The translations under genes were made by a program, and so were the position numbers. Of a stretch of 42,559 nucleotides of DNA, positions 2,456-41,279 are shown piece by piece. The stretch is from a virus, in IMG/VR virus record IMGVR_UViG_3300025528_000003. The stretch is one strand, 5' to 3'. Under the pieces are notes generated by a model. That model worked only from the letters and a program-made list of their open reading frames with translations. It was not told the origin of the DNA and searched no databases. Each line of letters starts with the position of its first letter. Position 1 is the stretch's first letter.

Positions 2456-2751
2456 CAGATAAGCCCCGCTGTCAGCGCGAAGCTCGCGCCCTTGGACAAT
2501 TCCTCGTCCAGTATCCGCGCAAGCTCACGCTCCATTTTCATGATTTCCACCTCTTCACGAAGCTGCCGGTGCAGATCATTGTCGATCAGCCTCGGCCTTG
2601 CCCGCAGTGTGCGGGTGTGCTCGCGAACGGTACAGGTTCGGATAAGGGCCGACGCGGACGGGGAACCATTCCCCGCCTCCCTAGAAGCTTCCAGGCGAGA
2701 TTGCTTCCTCTTGGCTGATGCGTCAGCCCTGTCTCGTGTGGATCTGCTCAT
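2455..2751 (-). CDS. Hypothetical basic protein (98 aa)
   Basis: ORF with GGGAGGG 5 nt upstream of the ATG and a TGATG overlap with the HNH gene start. Confidence 0.5.
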   Translation of the reverse strand: MSRSTRDRADASAKRKQSRLEASREAGNGSPSASALIRTCTVREHTRTLRARPRLIDNDLHRQLREEVEIMKMERELARILDEELSKGASFALTAGLI

Positions 2752-2784
2752 GCTGCCCTCCCAAGCTGGTCGCGGACGAAGATG

Positions 2785-3060
2785 TCAGTCATCACGATCC
2801 TCCGCCCAGTGACGGCAAGCGGGTGCCCGTGCGCGAATGTCTGTGCCGGGGCCTCCGGTCCAATTTCTGCGCATGAGAGCGCATTTCAGGTATGTTTTTG
2901 CCAGTCGATTGCGGTATATGTGCTTACATGTGCCGCATGTTTCGCCTTCCGGTCCCGTCCCGGGTGGAGCGGCGTACCCTCGTGGCTGCGTCGTCTTCCG
3001 GCCCCTTAAAAGAGCGCGCGCCTCTTCAACTGAAATCTCGTTGCCGAACATGTCTCTCAT
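2785..3060 (-). CDS. Hypothetical Cys-containing (zinc-ribbon-like) protein
   Basis: 91-aa ORF with CGTCKH...C...C. Coupled to the neighbouring genes. Confidence 0.6.
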   Translation of the reverse strand: MRDMFGNEISVEEARALLRGRKTTQPRGYAAPPGTGPEGETCGTCKHIYRNRLAKTYLKCALMRRNWTGGPGTDIRARAPACRHWAEDRDD

Positions 3061-3503
3061 GCGGCCCTCCTGAGGTCTTCGGGATTGGTAAGGACGATGC
3101 CCTTCTCGCAGAAGTGCTGCCAGATCGCGTTGAGATAACGATGCTTCTGAGCCGTGGTCATGATCCGAGTAATCGGCATGTCCAAAGGCTCCTGCATCAC
3201 GGCAAGCTTCTGCTCGTAGGGCAGTGGCTTTACGATGGCGTCATAGCGCTCGCGGAAGGCTTCGTTTTCCTCTCGCAGGATCGGCACGCCTAGGTGAAGC
3301 TTGCAGTAGCCGCGGATTTCTTCTGGCGTTACATCGCCAAGCTGCTCGGCAATCTCCTGCATCCACTTCCGTTGAAGTTTGTTTTGGAGCGATGTCCGTA
3401 TCTTCCCTGCCGTGACAGTGCAGGTGAACGGAAGCTTCTGCCCCTCAAGGAAGCGGATGAGCATCTTCCGGTCGTACTCGGTTTCCACGATCCTGTCGGC
3501 CAT
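3057..3503 (-). CDS. NinB/Orf-like recombination mediator
   Basis: Start is at MADRIVE, with GGGAGGTGGAG upstream. The pattern TVTAGKIRTSLQNKLQRKWMQEIAEQ and the C-terminal ITRIMTTAQKHRYLNAIWQHFCEKGI mirror the layout of lambda/P22 NinB (recalled, not searched). Confidence 0.55.
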   Translation of the reverse strand: MADRIVETEYDRKMLIRFLEGQKLPFTCTVTAGKIRTSLQNKLQRKWMQEIAEQLGDVTPEEIRGYCKLHLGVPILREENEAFRERYDAIVKPLPYEQKLAVMQEPLDMPITRIMTTAQKHRYLNAIWQHFCEKGIVLTNPEDLRRAA

Positions 3504-3516
3504 TGCTCCACCTCCC

Positions 3517-3933
3517 TCAGCCCGCACGCTTCCATTTCACCCCATAGGCGGGGTGGCTTTCGCCCCGTTTCAGGTGGCGATATTCCTGGAAGCGCGGTGC
3601 GTTCAGATTTTCCTTTTGGGTTCCCCACTCCAAATTGCCTGGTCGGTTGTTTGCTGCGTTCTCGTCCTTGTGCATACAAACAGCATCTGGGAATGGTTTT
3701 GGCCCGTTGAAGGCTTCACAGACGAGCTGCGCGACCTTGTAGGTGCGTCCTTTGTGTACGATGATGAAACGAGCGTCTTGCTTGTTCCACACGCCAAAGT
3801 GGGGTTCACCACCGTATTGCCGCGTTCCCCCGTGCGGCATGGGAGCCTCGTAGGGAGCGACCATGATGCGCCCCTCGCTCGAAACGAGAAACTGAGGAGC
3901 GCTCGGCACGACTTTCCAGACTTCGCCAATCAA
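3517..3933 (-). CDS. HNH homing endonuclease (NUMOD4-like N-terminus + HNH_3-like core)
   Basis: Motifs [18 protein letters not shown] and [22 protein letters not shown]. Confidence 0.8.
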
Positions 3934-4391
3934 AATGGGATCTCCGAGTCGTCCAGATCGACGCGGCTTCCTTCGCCATCCCCGTAGCTGCTCTGCTGCT
4001 CGCCGTATCCGCTCTGTGACGGGCCACGGTCGGACTGCGATTTGTTGTCGAGCATCTGGAGTTCGCCGCGATACTTCTGGAGCACTATTTCCGTGGTGTA
4101 CCGATCATGCCCGGACTGGTCCTGCCATTTGCGGGTTTGCAGGGAGCCTTCCAGATAGACCTTCATGCCTTTACGAAGGTATTGCTCTGCGAGCTTCGCC
4201 AAATTGTCATTGAAGATGACTACCTGATGCCATTCTGTCTTTTCGCGGCGCTCGCCCGTGTTCTTGTCGCGCCAGCTTTCCGATGTGGCGATGCGAAGGT
4301 TTACAACCGGATCGCCGCTCTGAAGCCTGCGAACTTCCGGATCGGCTCCAAGGTTGCCTACGAGGATGACGCGATTAACAGAACCTGCCAT
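3930..4391 (-). CDS. ssb: Single-stranded DNA-binding protein
   Basis: N-terminal OB-fold signature ([15 protein letters not shown]...), a Gly/Gln/Ser-rich linker and an acidic DDSEIPF tail. Confidence 0.95.
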
Positions 4392-7424: not shown

Positions 7425-7453
7425 CTTTTCGCACGCAATTGCGTTAATGTCAA
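7425..7453 (-). promoter_or_regulatory. Candidate leftward early promoter module (PL-like): TTGACA -35 plus operator; -10 unclear
   Basis: Minus strand reads TTGACATTAACGCAATTGCGTG, 21/22 identical to the rightward promoter module at 8458-8479. The -10 position reads only GAAAAG/CGAAAA. Confidence 0.45.
7433..7444. promoter_or_regulatory. 12-bp perfect palindrome ACGCAATTGCGT (operator, left copy)
   Basis: Read directly. An identical palindrome is at 8467-8478. Confidence 0.7.
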
Positions 7454-7484
7454 CACGTGTGAACGAGATAGCGTGCATTTTTTT

Positions 7485-7513
7485 TTGACTTTGCACGAAT
7501 CAGCGTTTATGCT
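7485..7513 (+). promoter_or_regulatory. Sigma70-like promoter TTGACT-N17-TATGCT pointing rightwards into an ORF-free segment
   Basis: Read directly. It diverges from the PL-like module. Confidence 0.45.
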
Positions 7514-7519
7514 TGGGGA

Positions 7520-7838
7520 ACATTAGAAGCGGCGACCCGGTGCAACTCCGTGGCCAGCTAAGCCGCAGGCGCGGGTGTCGAAAGTCCTACCGTGCTGCTG
7601 GAAAGTGAGGACGGATTAGCCGAGAGGCGTCCTGCCAGATGCGACCGACCGACCGACGGTTCAGGCCGACTGATGGCAAAGATGCTCCCGCCTTTCAGGC
7701 TTAGGTCTGAGGGGTAGGGGGTGTCTTTGCCTTCGCTTCCCTCCCTCTCTCTGGTTCAGAACCCTCTTTCACTGAGAGATTAGAGCACAACTTTAAGGCC
7801 TATGTACTAGGCGGACCAAAAATCGCCGGTCTCTGAAT
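7520..7838 (+). ncRNA. Candidate structured non-coding RNA of unknown class (strand provisional)
   Basis: No ORF of 60 aa or more on either strand, with stops in all frames. GC-rich with nested complementary segments: 7532-39/7572-80, 7550-54/7562-66, 7608-13/7628-33, 7709-21/7737-49. A promoter lies immediately upstream. Confidence 0.3.
7642..7657. repeat. Tetranucleotide repeat (CGAC)x4
   Basis: Read directly, inside the ORF-free segment. Confidence 0.9.
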
Positions 7839-7853
7839 GTTCTCATTTTGTTC
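7839..7853. promoter_or_regulatory. GTTC-N7-GTTC, exact match to the alphaproteobacterial LexA (SOS) box
   Basis: GTTCtcattttGTTC read directly, in an AT-rich intergenic stretch. It abuts TTGCCA (7854-59) -N17/18- CTTAAT/TTAATT. Confidence 0.5.
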
Positions 7854-7883
7854 TTGCCAATGAATAGGAATTCAGTCTTAATT
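7854..7883 (+). promoter_or_regulatory. Candidate rightward promoter next to the SOS box
   Basis: TTGCCA, a 17-18 nt spacer, then (C)TTAAT(T). Confidence 0.3.
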
Positions 7884-7917
7884 GGGTACTCATGGCGAGC
7901 CAGTAAGGGAGGCAGTT

Positions 7918-7977
7918 TTGAGTACCATGTACGCTGTGCAGGGCTTCATTAAGGAAAATCTCCCTGTCGTCTCGTGA
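7918..7977 (+). CDS. Possible 19-codon leader ORF
   Basis: AAGGGAGG (7905-12) lies 5 nt before TTG 7918 (alternative ATG at 7927). Its TGA overlaps GTG 7974 of the next ORF. Confidence 0.2.
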   Translation: MSTMYAVQGFIKENLPVVS

Positions 7978-7987
7978 GGGACGGGGA
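7951..7987 (-). terminator. Intrinsic terminator for the repressor transcript
   Basis: 8-bp stem (7961-68 / 7980-87, one G-U pair), followed on the minus strand by GAUUUUCC. Confidence 0.55.
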
Positions 7988-8201
7988 CAGTCTCATGCGG
8001 CGGGCACGAATGAGGGAACTCGAAGAGATATTACGAATCTGGGCTTCGTTATCGGACGAACATCGGGAGGTCGGACTTCAATACGCTAAATACCTCGCAG
8101 CTCTTGAAAGAGCCGGAGTAACTGCTGGCGCCCCTCTTCAGACAGACCAGCATACACACGAAGAAGTTCCTCGTCAGTTGGCGTCACTTCTAGTCCGGTA
8201 A
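7974..8201 (+). CDS. Small ORF (75 aa from GTG 7974; 68 aa from ATG 7995) resembling the repressor C-terminal tail; candidate antirepressor
   Basis: EEILRIWASLSDEHREVGLQYAKYL aligns without gaps to the repressor's EELLRVYAGLSEEGRQQLLRLFQEL (11/25 identical). It converges on the repressor gene and overlaps its 3' end by 116 nt. Confidence 0.4.
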   Translation: MRDGDSLMRRARMRELEEILRIWASLSDEHREVGLQYAKYLAALERAGVTAGAPLQTDQHTHEEVPRQLASLLVR

Positions 8202-8457
8202 GGATCTTTATCGGGCTGACGCCTAGTTCCTTGGTGAGCGCCAGGAAGTTGCCGACGCTCGGCTCGCGACCGGACTTCATAAGCTGATTGACAAAATTAG
8301 GGCCTAGACCAGCGGCGATGCTGATCTGTCGCGCTGATCTCCCCTTGTTGATCTCCGCTTCAATCGCAGCGAAGAGCCGCTTCCGCCAACTCTCATCGTT
8401 CATGGCGGCTAGAGTTAGCATATTTTGCGTTTTGTGCTTGAACGTTATTGCGGGCAC
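8086..8457 (-). CDS. CI-like immunity repressor: XRE-family HTH only, no S24 autopeptidase domain
   Basis: HTH segment RSARQISIAAGLGPNFVNQLMKSGREPSVGNFLALTKELGV. It diverges from the cro-like gene. Alternative starts at 8421 and 8403 are at least as likely as 8457. Confidence 0.85.
   Translation of the reverse strand: MPAITFKHKTQNMLTLAAMNDESWRKRLFAAIEAEINKGRSARQISIAAGLGPNFVNQLMKSGREPSVGNFLALTKELGVSPIKILTGLEVTPTDEELLRVYAGLSEEGRQQLLRLFQELRGI
8442..8453. promoter_or_regulatory. Degenerate second operator ACGTTATTGCGG (9/12 match)
   Basis: Read directly. Its centre is 25 bp from the centre of the perfect palindrome at 8467-78. Confidence 0.35.
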
Positions 8458-8485
8458 TTGACTTTAACGCAATTGCGTGTATCCT
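8458..8485 (+). promoter_or_regulatory. Rightward early promoter (PR-like) TTGACT-N16-TATCCT with the ACGCAATTGCGT operator (8467-8478) in the spacer
   Basis: Read directly. The -10 ends 8 nt before ATG 8494, implying a leaderless or near-leaderless cro-like mRNA. Confidence 0.6.
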
Positions 8486-8493
8486 GCGTAATC

Positions 8494-8730
8494 ATGAAGT
8501 CGCAACTCCTTACCGATATCGAGAAGTTCCTGGCCGAAACCGGCATGAGCGAGTACCGCTTTGGGTATCTCGCGGCCCGTAATGGGCGTCTGGTCGAAAG
8601 GCTTCGCCAGGGCACAACCCCGAAGCGCGGAAAGCTCGTAACGATCCACCCGGATACCGAAAAGAAGATTCGCGGTTTCATGGCCGAACGGCGCTTGCTG
8701 AAGCGGAAACGCAGAGGGGTCGCGGCATGA
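8494..8730 (+). CDS. Cro-like early regulator (78 aa)
   Basis: First gene of the rightward operon, divergent from the repressor. HTH-like segment SEYRFGYLAARNGRLVERLRQG. Confidence 0.6.
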   Translation: MKSQLLTDIEKFLAETGMSEYRFGYLAARNGRLVERLRQGTTPKRGKLVTIHPDTEKKIRGFMAERRLLKRKRRGVAA

Positions 8731-24917: not shown

Positions 24918-26378
24918 ATGCAGATTCCATTCGCGGAATGGGCACCGGATAGCGCTGCCCTGAATAGCAATGTTGCGGCGGATGTGCGGGGCGTGCTTTG
25001 TGCCGCCAATTCGTACATCCCGTTCCCGAGCCTTGTTTCGGTCTCTGAGCCGCTGCCGGACAAGCCGCTGGGTTATTTCACGGCCCGGTCCCTTGCTGGC
25101 GGGGAGGTTGTGATATTTGCCGCCACGTCCGAGAAAATCTATCGGATGGACAATACCGATTTTAGCTGGAATGACGTAAGCCAGAACGGCACGACCTATG
25201 CTGCATCTGATGATGCGCTTTGGAGCTTTGCGCAGTTTGGCGACTACGTTGTTGCGGTCAACAAAAACGATGACCCGCAATATTTCCAGATCGGCGTCTC
25301 TACCGAGTTTGCAGACCTGCCGGGCAGCCCGCCACGGGCCAATCAGGTGCGCGTGTGGGGCGATTTCCTCGCACTGATACAGCTTACAAGCAACCCGAAC
25401 AGGGTGCATTGGTCCGGTCTCAACGACATTACGCAGTGGACACCAGGCGCGAACAATTGCGACTTTCAGGATTTCCCTGACGGCGGCATTGTTCAGGGTT
25501 CCAGCGAGGCGACAAACCCGGTCATCATCCTTGAGCGGGCGATTTATGTCGCAACGTTCATTCCCGGTTCCGTTTCGGTATTCAACTTCACGAAGGTGCA
25601 CGATCAGCGCGGCGCGGCATCGGACAAATCCATTGCTACCCGTGGTTCGTACATGTTCTACGCCGACCGTGGCGGCTTTTTCCAGATTGGCGCGGACGGC
25701 TCTCTTGCCAATATCGGCTTTGAGAAGGTCGATAGGACGATTTTCGGCTCTCTGGCTGCCCCCGACATTGCGTCGATGCGCGGCGTGGTCGATCCGTTCT
25801 ATTCGCGGGTTTACTGGGCTGCGGATATGGGCGGCGTCGGTTTCTTCAACCGGCTCTATGTCTACGACTGGAATCTCCAGCGCTGGTCTCAGGCACATGT
25901 GAGCATTCACGGTCATTTCCCGGCAGCCTCCACGGGCACGACGCTTGAGGGATTGGACGACATTTCGGCCAGTCTGGATGATTTGCCGTTCTCGCTCGAC
26001 TCCAAGGTCTGGCAGGGCGGTGCGCCCATTCTGGCGGCATTCACGATGGATTACAGGCTTGCATTCTTCAATGGCCCGCCAATGCGTGCCGTGCTCACCA
26101 CTCAGGAGGTGGGCGACACGGCGGGCCAGGTGACATTCCTGCGCGAAGTCATGCCGGTGGTCGATACCGACGAGGTTAGCGTCGAGATCGGATCCCGCTT
26201 TCGCCGCAGCGATCCCGTGAACTGGCTTCAAGCCCGCCGTCCTTCCGCCGCGACGGGCATGGTCCAGTGTCGCGCAAGAGGCCGCTTCCATCGCTTCCGC
26301 GTCTCCATCGATCCCGGAAGCCTCTGGACGCACGCTCAGGGAATTGACGTTAAGCCGCAACCGATGGGCATTAGATGA
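24918..26378 (+). CDS. Virion protein, positional analogue of tail tubular protein B / nozzle
   Basis: 486 aa, follows the adaptor-like gene. Confidence 0.5.
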   Translation: MQIPFAEWAPDSAALNSNVAADVRGVLCAANSYIPFPSLVSVSEPLPDKPLGYFTARSLAGGEVVIFAATSEKIYRMDNTDFSWNDVSQNGTTYAASDDALWSFAQFGDYVVAVNKNDDPQYFQIGVSTEFADLPGSPPRANQVRVWGDFLALIQLTSNPNRVHWSGLNDITQWTPGANNCDFQDFPDGGIVQGSSEATNPVIILERAIYVATFIPGSVSVFNFTKVHDQRGAASDKSIATRGSYMFYADRGGFFQIGADGSLANIGFEKVDRTIFGSLAAPDIASMRGVVDPFYSRVYWAADMGGVGFFNRLYVYDWNLQRWSQAHVSIHGHFPAASTGTTLEGLDDISASLDDLPFSLDSKVWQGGAPILAAFTMDYRLAFFNGPPMRAVLTTQEVGDTAGQVTFLREVMPVVDTDEVSVEIGSRFRRSDPVNWLQARRPSAATGMVQCRARGRFHRFRVSIDPGSLWTHAQGIDVKPQPMGIR

Positions 26379-40089: not shown

Positions 40090-40120
40090 GTGGCTCAAAC
40101 CCGCAGAAAACCGGGATTCG

Positions 40121-40173
40121 GCACCGGCCTTCTAAGCCGATGGTCGCAGGTTCGAATCCTGCCGGGGTCGCCA
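40121..40173 (+). other. attP core: 3' ~50 nt of a tRNA-Arg(UCU)-like gene (anticodon arm to CCA); not a complete tRNA
   Basis: Own folding. T-arm GCAGG-TTCGAAT-CCTGC, acceptor 3' strand CGGGGTC-G-CCA, anticodon loop CTTCTAA. There is no matching 5' acceptor strand or D-arm upstream. Confidence 0.8.
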
Positions 40174-40236: not shown

Positions 40237-40244
40237 ATTCCCGT

Positions 40245-41279
40245 TCATGGATGGTTCCTTTCCATCCGCAGAATCACGGCGTCACTGTCCTCCTGATCGG
40301 GGGACAGATAATGCCTTTCCAGGATCGTCGTGACCTCGCCAATTGAGTGCCCTGAGATGAGGGCAATGCGCTTGATGTCATTGCCTTCCTTCCACCGCTC
40401 GGTGATGAAAGTCCCCCTGAGATCGTGGAAGGTAACATCGGTAATACCGAGCTTATCGCACTCTTTGCCCCATGATGTCTTGAATCCGTCCTTCGTCCAT
40501 GGACGACCCCGCGAATTGAGGCAGATGCGCAATGTGTCCTTTGGCATTGCATCAAGCATCGCCTTCAGTCGCGAATGGACGCGCACCTTCAGCTTCTTGC
40601 CGGTCTTGGACTGGTGGAAGCGAAGATAGGTGCCGTCATAATCCCTCCACGAAAGGCCCAGAATGTCACTCTGCCGCTGGCCGGTCGCTATGGCGATCTC
40701 GAATGGCAGAAGAAGGTGACTGGGCGCATTCTCCCTGAATCTCCTGATCAGGTCCGGCGTCCATATGAAGTCGCGCCGAGACCCCTTGTAGAGCCGGGTA
40801 ATCCCGTGACAGGGGTTCTTGTCGATCAGTTCGCAGGCTATGCCGTAGGAAAAGAGCTTGGACAGCGAGAAAAGCAGCTTGTCGGCCTTGCGCGGGTTCT
40901 GGGCAAAGCTTCTGTGCCACTTCCTTATATCGTCCTTCATCCCCTTCTCTTGCGTGAGGTGAAGGGGAAGGCGGGGCCATTTCTTCCTGATGAGCCGGAA
41001 GGCGTAGAGATGGTCCCTGCGCGTCGTTTCCGCCAGAGCGAGCCAGTCGGGGTTGGGTTCGTGGTCCGTCCCGGTGAAGCGATCTATCAGGCTATCAAGC
41101 GTCAGTGTCGGCTCTCTTGCCGCAAGCTCCCGGAGACGGGCCACCTCCATGACAAATTCCGGCGTGTGCGGCTTTGCCTTGATCTTCGGGCCGCCGCGCC
41201 ATGCGTAATAGTGATGGCGATAGGTGCCGTCCGCCAGCTTGCGCTTGACGTGATGCACGCCCTTAACGCGCACGAGCAT
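40245..41279 (-). CDS. int: Tyrosine recombinase / phage integrase
   Basis: 344 aa. C-terminal catalytic contexts ATGQRQSDIL, HDLRGTF and GHS...ERHY. Adjacent to the tRNA-fragment attP. Confidence 0.95.
   Translation of the reverse strand: MLVRVKGVHHVKRKLADGTYRHHYYAWRGGPKIKAKPHTPEFVMEVARLRELAAREPTLTLDSLIDRFTGTDHEPNPDWLALAETTRRDHLYAFRLIRKKWPRLPLHLTQEKGMKDDIRKWHRSFAQNPRKADKLLFSLSKLFSYGIACELIDKNPCHGITRLYKGSRRDFIWTPDLIRRFRENAPSHLLLPFEIAIATGQRQSDILGLSWRDYDGTYLRFHQSKTGKKLKVRVHSRLKAMLDAMPKDTLRICLNSRGRPWTKDGFKTSWGKECDKLGITDVTFHDLRGTFITERWKEGNDIKRIALISGHSIGEVTTILERHYLSPDQEDSDAVILRMERNHP

What the first reader, a model, noticed from the sequence alone, without database searches (positions are those of the whole stretch)
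7839..8201. SOS-box-associated small ORF that converges on the repressor gene and mimics its C-terminal tail: candidate LexA-controlled antirepressor
Seen in the sequence:
- GTTCtcattttGTTC (7839-53) is an exact GTTC-N7-GTTC alphaproteobacterial LexA box. It abuts a rightward TTGCCA-N17/18-(C)TTAAT(T) promoter-like element.
- Downstream there is a strong SD (AAGGGAGG) and a 19-codon leader ORF. The leader's TGA overlaps GTG 7974 of a 75-codon ORF (alternative ATG at 7995).
- That ORF runs 116 nt into the 3' end of the repressor gene on the opposite strand.
- Its core EEILRIWASLSDEHREVGLQYAKYL aligns without gaps to the repressor tail EELLRVYAGLSEEGRQQLLRLFQEL (11/25 identical plus conservative changes).
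- The repressor (123 aa or fewer) is HTH-only and has no S24 autopeptidase domain.

Established knowledge: non-cleavable phage repressors are typically inactivated by LexA-controlled antirepressors (186 Tum, Gifsy, N15 AntC).

Inference: SOS derepression would produce a decoy of the repressor's oligomerisation tail, plus an antisense transcript across the cI 3' end.

Caveat: about 1.3 GTTC-N7-GTTC/GAAC-N7-GAAC sites are expected by chance in 42.5 kb, so the box alone is weak evidence. The ORF could instead be a recombination scar of another repressor gene.
Basis: partly seen in the sequence, partly recalled or inferred. Interest (0 to 1): 0.75.

Follow-up and report, generated by a model that had tools for sequence, protein, structure and literature searches.

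The report
SOS-gated tail-mimic antirepressor of a phage
Next to this phage's repressor gene lies an unannotated small gene, preceded by a binding site for the host's DNA-damage regulator LexA, whose product resembles the repressor's own pairing tail; it is conserved in many related phages and most likely switches the phage on after DNA damage, as known small antirepressors do in other bacteria.

Summary
On this window alone it is weak: 3 GTTC-N7-GTTC sites against 1.16 expected, and no protein-database homologue of the ORF. Comparative evidence makes it strong.

- I examined 24 distinct loci encoding homologous short (~100 aa) XRE repressors. These have an HTH domain plus two C-terminal helices and no S24 peptidase domain. 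They come from Paracoccus, Rhodobacter, Rhizobium, Agrobacterium, viral contigs and metagenomes.
- 23 of the 24 carry a small ORF convergent on the repressor gene, with a conserved ~32-residue two-helix core.
- 14 have an exact alphaproteobacterial LexA box (either orientation) within about 175 nt upstream. A formal test on 19 loci gave P = 2e-16.
- A profile of the small ORFs aligns to the repressor tail (hhalign probability 88%, E = 3e-6).
- The similarity is at protein level, not a DNA hairpin.
- A homologue that carries an S24 domain has neither the box nor the ORF.

The best explanation is a LexA-controlled antirepressor that mimics the repressor's oligomerisation tail. It is analogous to SinI/SinR and to AimX/AimC of Bacillus phage phi106, but has no detectable sequence relationship to them. 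LexA binding, induction and heterodimer formation are inferred, not shown.

In passing I found a conserved ~240-nt structured RNA with no Rfam family just upstream (7527-7765).

The parts
7839..7853 (+). Alphaproteobacterial LexA box GTTCtcattttGTTC
   Evidence: Exact match. Both GTTC half-sites are invariant in five close variants while spacer base 7844 varies. An equivalent exact box lies upstream of the homologous small ORF in 13 other loci. The GTTCN7GTTC consensus is confirmed for Caulobacter LexA in PMC12700426.
7854..7882 (+). Promoter-like element: TTGCCA (7854-7859), 17-nt spacer, CTTAAT (7877-7882)
   Evidence: Read from the sequence. It is not called by the sigma-70 scan because the -10 lacks A at position 2. 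L031/L018, L037 and L038 also have TTG-type hexamers abutting or near the box. Promoter function is inferred only.
7905..7912 (+). Shine-Dalgarno AAGGGAGG
   Evidence: Sequence. It lies 5 nt before TTG 7918.
7918..7977 (+). 19-codon leader ORF (MSTMYAVQGFIKENLPVVS); its TGA overlaps GTG 7974 (GTGA)
   Evidence: Sequence. It is highly polymorphic among close variants (117 variable sites/kb, 5 of 7 nonsynonymous). The peptide itself is therefore probably not functional. A role in translational coupling or reinitiation is possible.
7974..8201 (+). Small ORF at its maximal extent (75 codons from GTG 7974; alternative starts ATG 7995 and ATG 8010): the candidate antirepressor
   Evidence: It is never called as a gene in any public copy. 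It is intact in nine near-identical contigs, with 9 variable sites/kb against 86-117/kb in the adjacent spacer and leader. The family HMM scores it at E = 1.3e-11, although it was part of the training set.
8010..8111 (+). Conserved two-helix core of the small protein (MRELEEILRIWASLSDEHREVGLQYAKYLAALER)
   Evidence: It aligns without gaps across 19 loci. AlphaFold predicts helices at residues 2-13 and 16-34, followed by a low-confidence tail. The profile matches the repressor tail.
8086..8403 (-). Phage repressor, 105 aa from ATG 8403 (ORF open to GTG 8457): XRE-type HTH plus a C-terminal helical hairpin, no S24 domain
   Evidence: HTH_3 hit only. PHROG transcriptional repressor/regulator hits. 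AlphaFold pLDDT 93.8. The nearest folds are the P22 c2 N-terminal domain, SPC32H Rep and SinR. There are 361 homologues at E <= 1e-5, named ones from Rhodobacterales and Rhizobiales.
8089..8181 (-). Repressor C-terminal tail (residues 75-105; helices 75-86 and 89-103): the presumed dimerisation module that the small protein resembles
7433..7444 (.). Operator ACGCAATTGCGT at the leftward early promoter (within a 22-nt inverted repeat that includes TTGACA)
   Evidence: It is a perfect 12-bp palindrome, which implies binding by a repressor dimer.
8467..8478 (.). Operator ACGCAATTGCGT inside the rightward promoter TTGACT-16-TATCCT (8458-8485)
8494..8730 (+). Cro-like first gene of the rightward operon (78 aa)
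   Evidence: It is conserved next to the repressor in L018.

Best explanation
The small ORF at 7974/8010-8201 most likely encodes an SOS-inducible antirepressor.

**In a lysogen.** Host LexA sits on the GTTC-N7-GTTC box at 7839-7853 and keeps the rightward promoter beside it shut. The 105-aa repressor has no autocleavage domain. It binds the palindromic operators at the leftward and rightward early promoters as a dimer, held together by its two C-terminal helices.

**After DNA damage.** LexA is cleaved and the small gene is transcribed. Its product's first ~32 residues form a helical hairpin that resembles the repressor's own tail. This hairpin pairs with the repressor tail in place of a second repressor subunit. 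The resulting heterodimer cannot bind the operators, so lytic genes are derepressed.

**What is shown here.**
- The sequence features themselves.
- Their conservation and co-occurrence across 24 loci.
- The family-level similarity between the small protein and the repressor tail.
- The predicted two-helix structures.
- The absence of an S24 domain.

**What is inferred.**
- LexA binding.
- Promoter activity.
- Translation and the start codon.
- Heterodimer formation.
- Loss of DNA binding.

Convergent transcription across the 3' end of the repressor gene may add a second, RNA-level effect. Nothing here tests that.
For: **Conservation of the module.**
- Relatives with repressors only 33-47% identical keep a convergent small ORF at the repressor's 3' end, with the core M-x(2-4)-E-h-h-x-x-W-x-x-L-[ST]-x-x-x-[KR]-x-x-x-L-x-x-x-R.
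- An HMM built from 12 of these ORFs finds the expected strand and place in loci held out of training. Against six-frame translations of 436 kb: L056 at 1.5e-6, L060 at 4.7e-6, L053 at 2.5e-3, L055 at 6e-3. In a separate search of three isolate loci: L063 at 2e-7, L064 at 1e-3, L062 at 7e-3.

**LexA box.**
- An exact GTTC-N7-GTTC or GAAC-N7-GAAC lies within 170 nt upstream of the small ORF in 10 of 19 loci tested. The window's own box, at -171, falls just outside this range and is not among the 10.
- The background is 6 boxes in 117 kb, giving a binomial P of 2e-16.
- L034, L063 and L064 also have one.

**Tail mimicry.**
- BLASTP gives E = 1e-4.
- After the small ORFs themselves, the best hits of the small-ORF HMM are repressor tails.
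- Profile-profile alignment places the small-ORF core on repressor columns 83-114, with probability 88% and E = 3e-6 (72% and 3.5e-5 with smaller sets).

**The similarity is at protein level.**
- Identity between the two arms in the window is 12, 17 and 7 of 27 at codon positions 1, 2 and 3. The region spanning both arms does not fold better than shuffles in any of six loci (z from -0.8 to +1.0).
- Across 19 loci, nucleotide identity is 0.35, 0.43 and 0.31 by codon position. The other two frames contain stops in 19 and 17 of the 19 loci.

**Structure.**
- The repressor model has an HTH domain plus helices 75-86 and 89-103 (pLDDT 93.8).
- The small protein has helices 2-13 and 16-34.
- The overall repressor architecture aligns over its full length with SinR of the SinR/SinI complex (1b0n) and with SPC32H Rep.

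**Other support.**
- The one homologue with an S24 domain (L051) has neither the box nor the ORF.
- Among close variants the ORF is 4-13 times less polymorphic than the repressor gene, spacer and leader, and the GTTC half-sites are invariant.
- The same layout is experimentally characterised in Bacillus phage phi106: a LexA site, then a 29-aa ORF overlapping the convergent gene of a short HTH repressor. There AimX blocks AimC oligomerisation (bioRxiv 10.1101/2025.11.23.689978).
Against: - There is no experimental evidence of any kind for this family.
- Nine of the 23 loci with the small ORF lack an exact LexA box; two of them have a one-mismatch version. LexA control is therefore not universal.
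- In the window the box lies 121-157 nt before the candidate start codons. A strong SD and an unconstrained 19-codon ORF lie in between. In relatives the distance is only 7-67 nt, so the window's arrangement is atypical and its start codon is unresolved.
- Similarity between a small ORF and its own repressor tail is significant in only some loci: window p < 0.0005, L038 p = 0.0085, L035 p = 0.03, and not significant in L031, L032 and L037.
- The ORF core shows no synonymous variation among close variants. That could instead reflect recent recombination or a nucleotide-level constraint.
- That the tail is the dimerisation surface is inferred from the palindromic operators and from analogy.
Confidence: 0.72

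Rival explanations
1. The LexA-gated promoter acts mainly at the RNA level. Convergent transcription or an antisense RNA across the 3' end of the repressor gene lowers repressor expression, and the ORF's peptide is dispensable.
For: The ORF overlaps the repressor gene by 116 nt in the window, and by some amount in most relatives. The LexA box and convergent orientation are conserved. The ORF's 3' part is not conserved as protein and is predicted to be disordered.
Against: The part of the small ORF that is conserved lies mostly outside the overlap, and its conservation is at amino-acid level with a codon-position signature. In L034 the box and ORF are present without any overlap with the repressor gene. 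In the analogous phi106 system the authors concluded that the sense-antisense interaction is probably not consequential and that the peptide suffices. This mechanism could still add to the protein effect.
Confidence: 0.12
2. The ORF is a decaying remnant, either a recombination scar or an inverted partial duplication of a repressor 3' end. It has no present function, and the LexA-like box is there by chance.
For: Within the window alone the box is not significant. The ORF has no homologue in 5.8 billion or 1.84 billion protein sets and was never called as a gene. The arm encoding the ORF core and the arm encoding the repressor tail are adjacent and inverted, as expected after an inverted duplication.
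Against: A remnant would not stay open with the same core motif, position and orientation in 23 of 24 loci whose repressors have diverged to 33-47% identity. It would also not keep an exact LexA box upstream in 14 of them (P = 2e-16). An origin by inverted duplication is compatible with a present function.
Confidence: 0.03
3. The small protein is SOS-induced but does something other than inactivate the repressor. It might be a co-repressor, a modulator of cooperativity, a superinfection-exclusion factor or a host-directed factor.
For: No interaction data exist. Nine of 23 loci lack a LexA box, so the protein is not always tied to SOS. Small phage proteins have many roles.
Against: It is tightly linked to repressors that have a tail but no S24 domain, and absent from the S24-bearing homologue. 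Its specific resemblance to the repressor tail points to the repressor as its partner. A non-cleavable repressor needs some inducer, and derepression after LexA cleavage fits an inducer rather than a co-repressor.
Confidence: 0.1
4. The apparent 'mirror' similarity is a by-product of a DNA or RNA hairpin, such as a bidirectional terminator between convergent genes. An imperfect inverted repeat read on opposite strands would give similar peptides.
For: The two similar segments are adjacent and inverted: 8016-8096 on the plus strand and 8098-8178 on the minus strand.
Against: The arms are only 36/81 identical, with identities concentrated at codon positions 1 and 2 (12, 17 and 7). The minimum-free-energy fold of the region does not pair the arms and is no better than shuffles in all six loci tested. 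The terminator scan found nothing there.
Confidence: 0.02

Closest known systems
AimX-AimC of arbitrium phages such as Bacillus phage phi106 (bioRxiv 10.1101/2025.11.23.689978)
   Same: The gene layout is nearly identical. A LexA binding site is followed by a very small ORF (29 aa) that converges on and overlaps the gene of a short HTH repressor. That repressor is not affected by mitomycin C on its own. The small helical protein binds the repressor's C-terminal oligomerisation domain and prevents oligomerisation and DNA binding.
   Different: The host phylum differs (Firmicutes against Alphaproteobacteria), and so does the LexA box type. No AimR/AimP signalling genes flank the window's module. 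The AimC C-terminal domain is described as two helices plus a beta-hairpin, whereas here it is a plain two-helix hairpin. No sequence relationship was established. The paper describes AimX as binding to the oligomerisation domain rather than resembling it in sequence; here the small protein is detectably similar to the tail.
SinI-SinR of Bacillus subtilis (PDB 1b0n)
   Same: An XRE-type HTH repressor carries a C-terminal helical oligomerisation domain. It is antagonised by a small protein that resembles that domain and forms a heterodimer in its place (my own knowledge, and as stated). SinR's HTH domain is among the best sequence and fold matches of this repressor family. Full-length SinR aligns over 102 columns.
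   Different: SinI/SinR is a chromosomal biofilm and sporulation switch, not controlled by LexA. The Pfam SinI domain is not detected in the small ORFs or in the window's repressor. The gene arrangement also differs: from my own knowledge, sinI lies upstream of sinR in the same orientation.
LexA-controlled antirepressors of non-cleavable lambdoid repressors: Gifsy GfoA/GfhA (PMC3121763), coliphage 186 Tum, N15 AntC (the last two from my own knowledge)
   Same: The logic is the same. The repressor has no self-cleavage. A small antirepressor is under direct LexA control, which plugs induction into the SOS response. The complex makes the repressor leave the DNA.
   Different: [quoted passage not shown] Here the gene is inside it and overlaps the repressor gene. 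There is no sequence similarity (no Pfam or PHROG hit). Resemblance to the repressor's own tail is not a described feature of those proteins.
Rep-Ant of Salmonella phage SPC32H (PDB 5d4z, 5d50)
   Same: This is a short HTH repressor of about 100 aa with C-terminal helices. It is a fold and sequence neighbour of this repressor. From my own knowledge, it is inactivated by a LexA-regulated antirepressor.
   Different: From my own knowledge, Ant there is a larger protein that engages the repressor's N-terminal domains and disassembles its oligomer. It is not a mimic of the tail.

Membership tests
LexA-controlled antirepressor / non-cleavable repressor induction modules (functional class) | The repressor lacks an S24 (LexA/CI-type) autopeptidase domain | tested here: met
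   Only HTH_3 is detected. The 105-aa AlphaFold model is HTH plus two helices. A homologue with an S24 domain exists (L051) and looks different.
LexA-controlled antirepressor / non-cleavable repressor induction modules (functional class) | A host-type LexA operator lies at the promoter of the antirepressor gene | tested here: met
   An exact GTTC-N7-GTTC lies at 7839-7853. It recurs upstream of the homologous ORF with P = 2e-16. The consensus is confirmed in PMC12700426. This is sequence evidence only.
LexA-controlled antirepressor / non-cleavable repressor induction modules (functional class) | LexA actually binds the site, and transcription is induced by DNA damage | not testable with these tools
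   This needs EMSA or ChIP, and RNA-seq or 5'-RACE with and without mitomycin C.
LexA-controlled antirepressor / non-cleavable repressor induction modules (functional class) | The small protein binds the repressor and releases it from its operators | not testable with these tools
No multimer predictor is available.
SinI/SinR family | The Pfam SinI domain (PF08671) is present in both the antagonist and the repressor C-terminus | tested here: not met
   None of the 12 small ORFs has a Pfam hit to SinI at E <= 1. The repressor has none either.
SinI/SinR family | The antagonist is similar in sequence to the repressor's C-terminal oligomerisation domain | tested here: met
   BLASTP E = 1e-4. hhalign probability 88%, E = 3e-6, onto tail columns 83-114. 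Repressor tails are the next-best hits of the small-ORF HMM.
SinI/SinR family | Both partners have a helical-hairpin ('helical hook') fold | tested here: met
   The predictions give repressor helices 75-86 and 89-103 and small-protein helices 2-13 and 16-34. These are predictions only.
AimX/AimC extended arbitrium module | A LexA site is followed by a small ORF that overlaps the convergent gene of a short HTH repressor | tested here: met
   compared with the description.
AimX/AimC extended arbitrium module | Adjacent aimR-aimP signalling genes | tested here: not met
   Between the leftward early operon (which ends at about 7496) and the small ORF there are only non-coding DNA and short ORFs. 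No large receptor gene is present.
AimX/AimC extended arbitrium module | Sequence homology to AimX or AimC | not tested
Searches with the small ORF found no homologues outside this family.

The most novel reading that the evidence does not exclude
The module may be more than a simple antirepressor gene. The conserved ~240-nt structured RNA immediately upstream (7527-7765) is transcribed from a promoter-like site back-to-back with the leftward early promoter. It ends in an invariant C-rich tail (CCCUCCCUC) complementary to 7 nt of the leader's Shine-Dalgarno sequence. This RNA could gate read-through or translation of the LexA-controlled tail mimic. That would give a two-input switch combining an RNA sensor with SOS. 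Separately, the RNA itself would be a new class of phage regulatory RNA or riboswitch-like element.
Probability: 0.07. Interest if true: 0.8.

Novelty: new variant of a known kind. Interest (0 to 1): 0.56.

Why it matters
Many temperate phages of Alphaproteobacteria (Rhodobacterales, Rhizobiales) carry short repressors that cannot cleave themselves. I found no published account of how they sense DNA damage.

This finding points to a widespread small-protein family that is almost entirely missing from protein databases. Only one member was found among 5.8 billion clustered proteins. This family probably performs that sensing.

It also extends the 'mimic the repressor's pairing domain' strategy, known from SinI/SinR and recently AimX/AimC in Firmicutes, to another phylum with a different LexA box.

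The idea is directly testable in cultured lysogens such as Paracoccus yeei (CP044081.1) and Rhizobium mesoamericanum (HF536772.1).

It is also a reminder that gene callers discard functional small genes when they overlap a convergent gene.

Tried and rejected
**Protein searches with the ORF alone.**
- The word-indexed search of 5.8 billion proteins found nothing.
- The full HMMER search of 1.84 billion representatives gave only three spurious hits to eukaryotic fibronectin-type repeat proteins, driven by the low-complexity C-terminal part.
- Pfam and PHROGs gave nothing.
- A search with the 12-sequence profile found a single 46-aa protein.

**Hairpin or terminator explanation of the mirror similarity.** Rejected by folding z-scores and by the codon-position pattern, and by the terminator scan.

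**Test for cognate-specific co-evolution of each small ORF with its own tail.** Inconclusive. Cognate scores are not systematically higher than non-cognate ones.

**Technical failure.** The metagenome scan with the 7-sequence alignment failed for lack of a conserved stretch. It was rerun with the 2-sequence alignment.

**Identifying the upstream RNA.**
- Rfam gave no hit at gathering thresholds, and only noise at E <= 10.
- A single-sequence fold was not significant (z = -1.35).
- Literature searches by sequence string and by DUF5131 found nothing.
- L015 was a false positive of the degenerate DNA pattern.

**The other two GTTC-N7-GTTC sites in the window.** One (25556) lies inside a 486-codon ORF (24918-26378). 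The other (40243) lies at the 3' end of a 344-codon minus-strand ORF that I took, without testing, to be the integrase gene. Both were treated as chance matches.
Full report
**What is in the window.** The window is a ~42.5-kb temperate-phage contig with a P22-type portal. Public metagenome assemblies hold the same sequence (ENA ERZ795071 NODE_611, JGI Ga0207864_1000717). Its immunity region reads as follows.

- A leftward early operon ends near 7496. Its promoter carries the perfect palindrome ACGCAATTGCGT at 7433-7444.
- A 470-nt stretch with no called gene follows.
- Next comes the small rightward ORF of the finding (7974-8201).
- The repressor gene lies on the minus strand at 8086-8403 (105 aa from ATG 8403).
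- A second copy of ACGCAATTGCGT lies at 8467-8478, inside a rightward TTGACT-16-TATCCT promoter.
- A cro-like gene lies at 8494-8730.

- the GTTC-N7-GTTC box (7839-7853)
- the abutting TTGCCA-17-CTTAAT
- the SD AAGGGAGG (7905-7912)
- the 19-codon ORF, whose TGA overlaps GTG 7974
- the 116-nt overlap with the repressor gene
- the ungapped 11/25 match between the ORF core and the repressor tail

BLASTP gives E = 1e-4 for that match, and 0 of 2000 shuffles reach its score. The repressor has only an HTH_3 hit and no S24 peptidase domain.

**The window alone does not carry the case.** Three GTTC-N7-GTTC sites occur against 1.16 expected, and 11% of shuffles do as well. The promoter-like hexamers fail a standard sigma-70 scan. 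The ORF has no homologue in the 5.8-billion-protein collection. Its only hits among 1.84 billion representatives are spurious, to repeat proteins. No gene caller has ever called it, although the repressor and cro genes beside it are on record.

**Close variants.** Five contigs whose repressors fall in the same 90%-identity cluster show a sharply uneven pattern.

| Region | Variable sites per kb | Notes |
|---|---|---|
| Spacer, box and promoter region | 86 | |
| 19-codon leader | 117 | 5 of 7 changes nonsynonymous |
| Repressor gene outside the overlap | 40 | mostly synonymous |
| Small ORF | 9 | both its unique part (7974-8085) and the overlap |

Both GTTC half-sites are untouched, while one spacer base varies. 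So the ORF is intact and unusually constrained. The leader peptide is not constrained. There are too few changes for a dN/dS estimate.

**Distant relatives decide the matter.** I collected loci encoding homologues of the repressor (33-47% identity) from viral contigs, genomes and metagenomes and from isolate genomes. This gave 24 distinct loci with the short tail-type repressor. In 23 of them a small ORF lies on the opposite strand at the repressor's 3' end, usually overlapping it. Its first ~32 residues align without gaps.

| Locus | Start of the small ORF |
|---|---|
| window | MRELEEILRIWASLSDEHREVGLQYAKYL |
| L018 | MTVSELLLLMESLTDQQKANRLRDFKTL |
| Rhodobacter sp. | MCDIEAMVLAWAQMTPAQRREALAFLRSL |
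| Paracoccus simplex | MEVPIAIALDLWSKLDPVRQRIVLDHLRA |
| L039 | MKTTVEVLRRWAVLSQNEKRDIIDRI |

An HMM built from 12 of these ORFs recovers held-out loci on the expected strand and at the expected place. In six-frame translations of 436 kb it finds L056 (1.5e-6), L060 (4.7e-6), L053 (2.5e-3) and L055 (6e-3). In a separate search of the three isolate loci it finds L063 from Paracoccus yeei (2e-7), L064 (1e-3) and L062 (7e-3).

Nucleotide identity across the 19 aligned loci is 0.35, 0.43 and 0.31 at codon positions 1, 2 and 3. The two other frames contain stops in 19 and 17 of the 19. The C-terminal remainder varies in length (the whole ORF is 31-70 aa) and in sequence. It is predicted to be disordered.

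**The LexA box travels with the ORF.** An exact GTTC-N7-GTTC or its complement GAAC-N7-GAAC lies within 170 nt upstream of the small-ORF start in 10 of 19 loci. The background is 6 boxes in 117 kb of the same loci, giving a binomial P of 2e-16. The window's own box sits at -171 from ATG 8010 and was not counted. Adding the window, L034 (box 7 nt before the ATG), Paracoccus yeei and Rhizobium mesoamericanum gives 14 of 23. Two more loci have a single mismatch. GTTCN7GTTC is the established LexA motif in Caulobacter (PMC12700426). From my own knowledge the same holds for Rhodobacter and the rhizobia. The named repressor homologues come from exactly these orders. The single homologue that carries an S24 domain (L051, about 220 aa) has neither the box nor the ORF.

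**The resemblance to the repressor tail is a family property and lies at protein level.** After the small ORFs themselves, the best hits of the small-ORF HMM are the C-terminal tails of the repressors. Profile-profile comparison aligns the small-ORF core to repressor columns 83-114 with probability 88% and E = 3e-6. The consensus pair is v-E-l--w--lt---k---L---r-l against -eEiLrll----p--R--iL-lLr (with smaller sets).

I tested the obvious artefact, an imperfect DNA palindrome read on both strands. The two arms in the window are 36/81 identical, with 12, 17 and 7 identities at codon positions 1, 2 and 3. In six loci the region does not pair the arms and folds no better than shuffles (z from -0.8 to +1.0). 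An origin by inverted duplication of the repressor's 3' end remains plausible, but the present constraint is on the peptide.

Similarity between each small ORF and its own repressor tail is strong in the window, L038 and L035 but not in all loci. I therefore make no claim about pair-specific co-evolution.

**Structure.** With a 75-sequence alignment, AlphaFold models the repressor at pLDDT 93.8. The model has five HTH helices plus helices 75-86 and 89-103. The closest folds and sequences are the P22 c2 N-terminal domain, ClgR, SinR and the SPC32H repressor. Full-length alignments are obtained to SinR in the SinR/SinI complex and to SPC32H Rep. The small protein is predicted as helix 2-13, a turn, helix 16-34, then a low-confidence tail. 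This is the same helix / S-or-T-capped turn / helix pattern as the repressor tail.

**Mechanism.**
- *Shown:* the features above, their linkage, and the two perfect 12-bp palindromic operators, which require a dimer.
- *Inferred:* LexA occupies the box in the lysogen. After RecA-stimulated LexA cleavage the small gene is expressed. Its hairpin replaces the partner tail in the repressor dimer, giving a heterodimer that cannot hold the operators, and the phage is induced.
- *Open:* convergent transcription into the repressor gene may contribute, but the conserved peptide and the non-overlapping arrangement in L034 argue that the protein is the effector.

I put this explanation at about 0.7.

**Comparison with known systems.**
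- *Gifsy antirepressors:* these established the general logic (PMC3121763). From my own knowledge 186 Tum and N15 AntC follow it too.
- *SinI/SinR:* this pair established the tail-mimic mechanism.
- *AimX/AimC of Bacillus phage phi106:* the gene layout is almost the same. A LexA site is followed by a 29-aa ORF overlapping the convergent aimC gene, and AimX blocks AimC oligomerisation. The authors themselves compare this to SinI/SinR (bioRxiv 10.1101/2025.11.23.689978).

Membership in those families fails where I could test it. There is no Pfam SinI domain, no aimR/aimP genes, and no Pfam or PHROG match to any described protein family, antirepressors included. I found no description of this alphaproteobacterial family in the searchable literature. 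I therefore class it as a new variant of a known kind: an independent, essentially unannotated family using a known trick.

**Unresolved points.**
- The start codon is uncertain. By homology the core begins at ATG 8010. However, the frame is open and invariant back to GTG 7974. Rhizobium mesoamericanum has a comparable 12-residue in-frame extension (MNADSDYERSRK-MRVS..., against MRDGDSLMRRAR-MREL...).
- The window is unusual in having a strong SD and an unconstrained 19-codon ORF between the box and the core. Termination-reinitiation at the GTGA overlap is plausible but untested.
- Nine loci lack an exact box and may respond to other signals. Many AimX loci likewise lack a LexA site.

**By-product.** The 'empty' stretch upstream contains a conserved structured RNA at about 7527-7765, preceded by TTGACT-17-TATGCT (7485-7513).
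- It matches unannotated DNA of two Synechococcus phages at 74% identity.
- It was found in 17 distinct sequences in all, the window included.
- Of 36 predicted base pairs, 18 show compensatory changes. 93.6% of cells are paired, against 48-58% in slid controls, and 0 of 500 shuffles reach the observed values.
- No Rfam family matches.
- Where I checked, it lies between the divergent early-left operon and the 3' end of a convergent repressor gene, which may be S24-type or short. Variable cargo follows it: DUF5131 with a convergent uncharacterised partner gene, and ORFs that by eye resemble an HNH nuclease, a methyltransferase, vWA and TROVE-like proteins.
- It accompanies the antirepressor module in only two loci (the window and L018), so it is an independent element. 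Its function is unknown.

Noticed in passing
window 7485-7770 (+): A conserved ~240-nt structured RNA candidate (core 7527-7765) lies behind a sigma-70-like TTGACT-17-TATGCT (7485-7513), back-to-back with the leftward early promoter. It is 74% identical to unannotated DNA in Synechococcus phages Yong-M2-251 and Ssp-JY39, and is present in 17 distinct sequences in all. Of 36 predicted pairs, 18 show compensatory changes, and 93.6% of cells are paired against 48-58% in slid controls. It has no Rfam family. It is nearly invariant among the close variants (1 site in 239 nt). Its function is unknown.
   Followed up: partly
L010-L030, regions downstream of the RNA element: The RNA element occupies the same slot in the loci I checked: after the divergent early-left operon, pointing toward the 3' end of a convergent repressor gene (S24-type in L016, L019, L020 and L030). 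Different cargo genes are inserted after it. DUF5131 (PF07505) was confirmed by Pfam, with a convergent 222-aa partner gene that had no Pfam hit. The other ORFs look by eye like an HNH nuclease, a DNA methyltransferase, vWA and TROVE/Ro60-like proteins. This suggests a promoter-plus-leader cassette for lysogen-expressed accessory genes.
   Followed up: partly
window 7432-7453 and 8458-8479: A 22-nt inverted repeat (95% complementary) places the perfect palindrome ACGCAATTGCGT immediately after a TTGAC(A/T) -35 hexamer at both the leftward and rightward early promoters. These are the likely repressor operators OL and OR.
   Followed up: partly
window 7918-7977 (+): The 19-codon ORF behind the strongest SD of the region is the most polymorphic stretch among close variants (117 sites/kb, 5 of 7 nonsynonymous). 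It ends in a GTGA overlap with the small ORF. It may be a coupling or reinitiation uORF rather than a functional peptide. No equivalent was seen in the relatives.
   Followed up: partly
window 40097-40170 (+), 40243-40257, 40245-41279 (-): A tRNA-like sequence reaches the Rfam tRNA threshold (31.9 bits) but is not called by ARAGORN. It lies about 75 nt from the 3' end of a 344-codon minus-strand ORF. This is probably an attachment-site remnant of a tRNA gene next to the integrase. A second GTTC-N7-GTTC box overlaps the end of that ORF.
   Followed up: no
L032/L033, about 130-400 nt downstream of the repressor's 3' end (upstream of the LexA box in small-ORF orientation): Where the window has its RNA element, this relative has a different G+C-rich stretch closed by AGTAACCCG...CGGGTTACT. 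It looks like another structured RNA in the same slot. No Rfam hit was found at gathering thresholds.
   Followed up: no
L051 (IMGVR_UViG_3300033120_000411) 2501-3166: This homologue of the repressor's HTH domain is fused to a LexA/CI-type S24 peptidase domain (about 220 aa). The locus has no convergent small ORF and no LexA box. It serves as a natural control showing that the two induction strategies are alternatives within one repressor family.
   Followed up: partly
window 7466-7481 and L010 about 3930-3950: The similarity between the window and the Synechococcus phages extends upstream of the RNA into the promoter region (GATAGCGTGCATTTTT is identical in both). The promoter and RNA therefore appear to move together as one module.
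   Followed up: no
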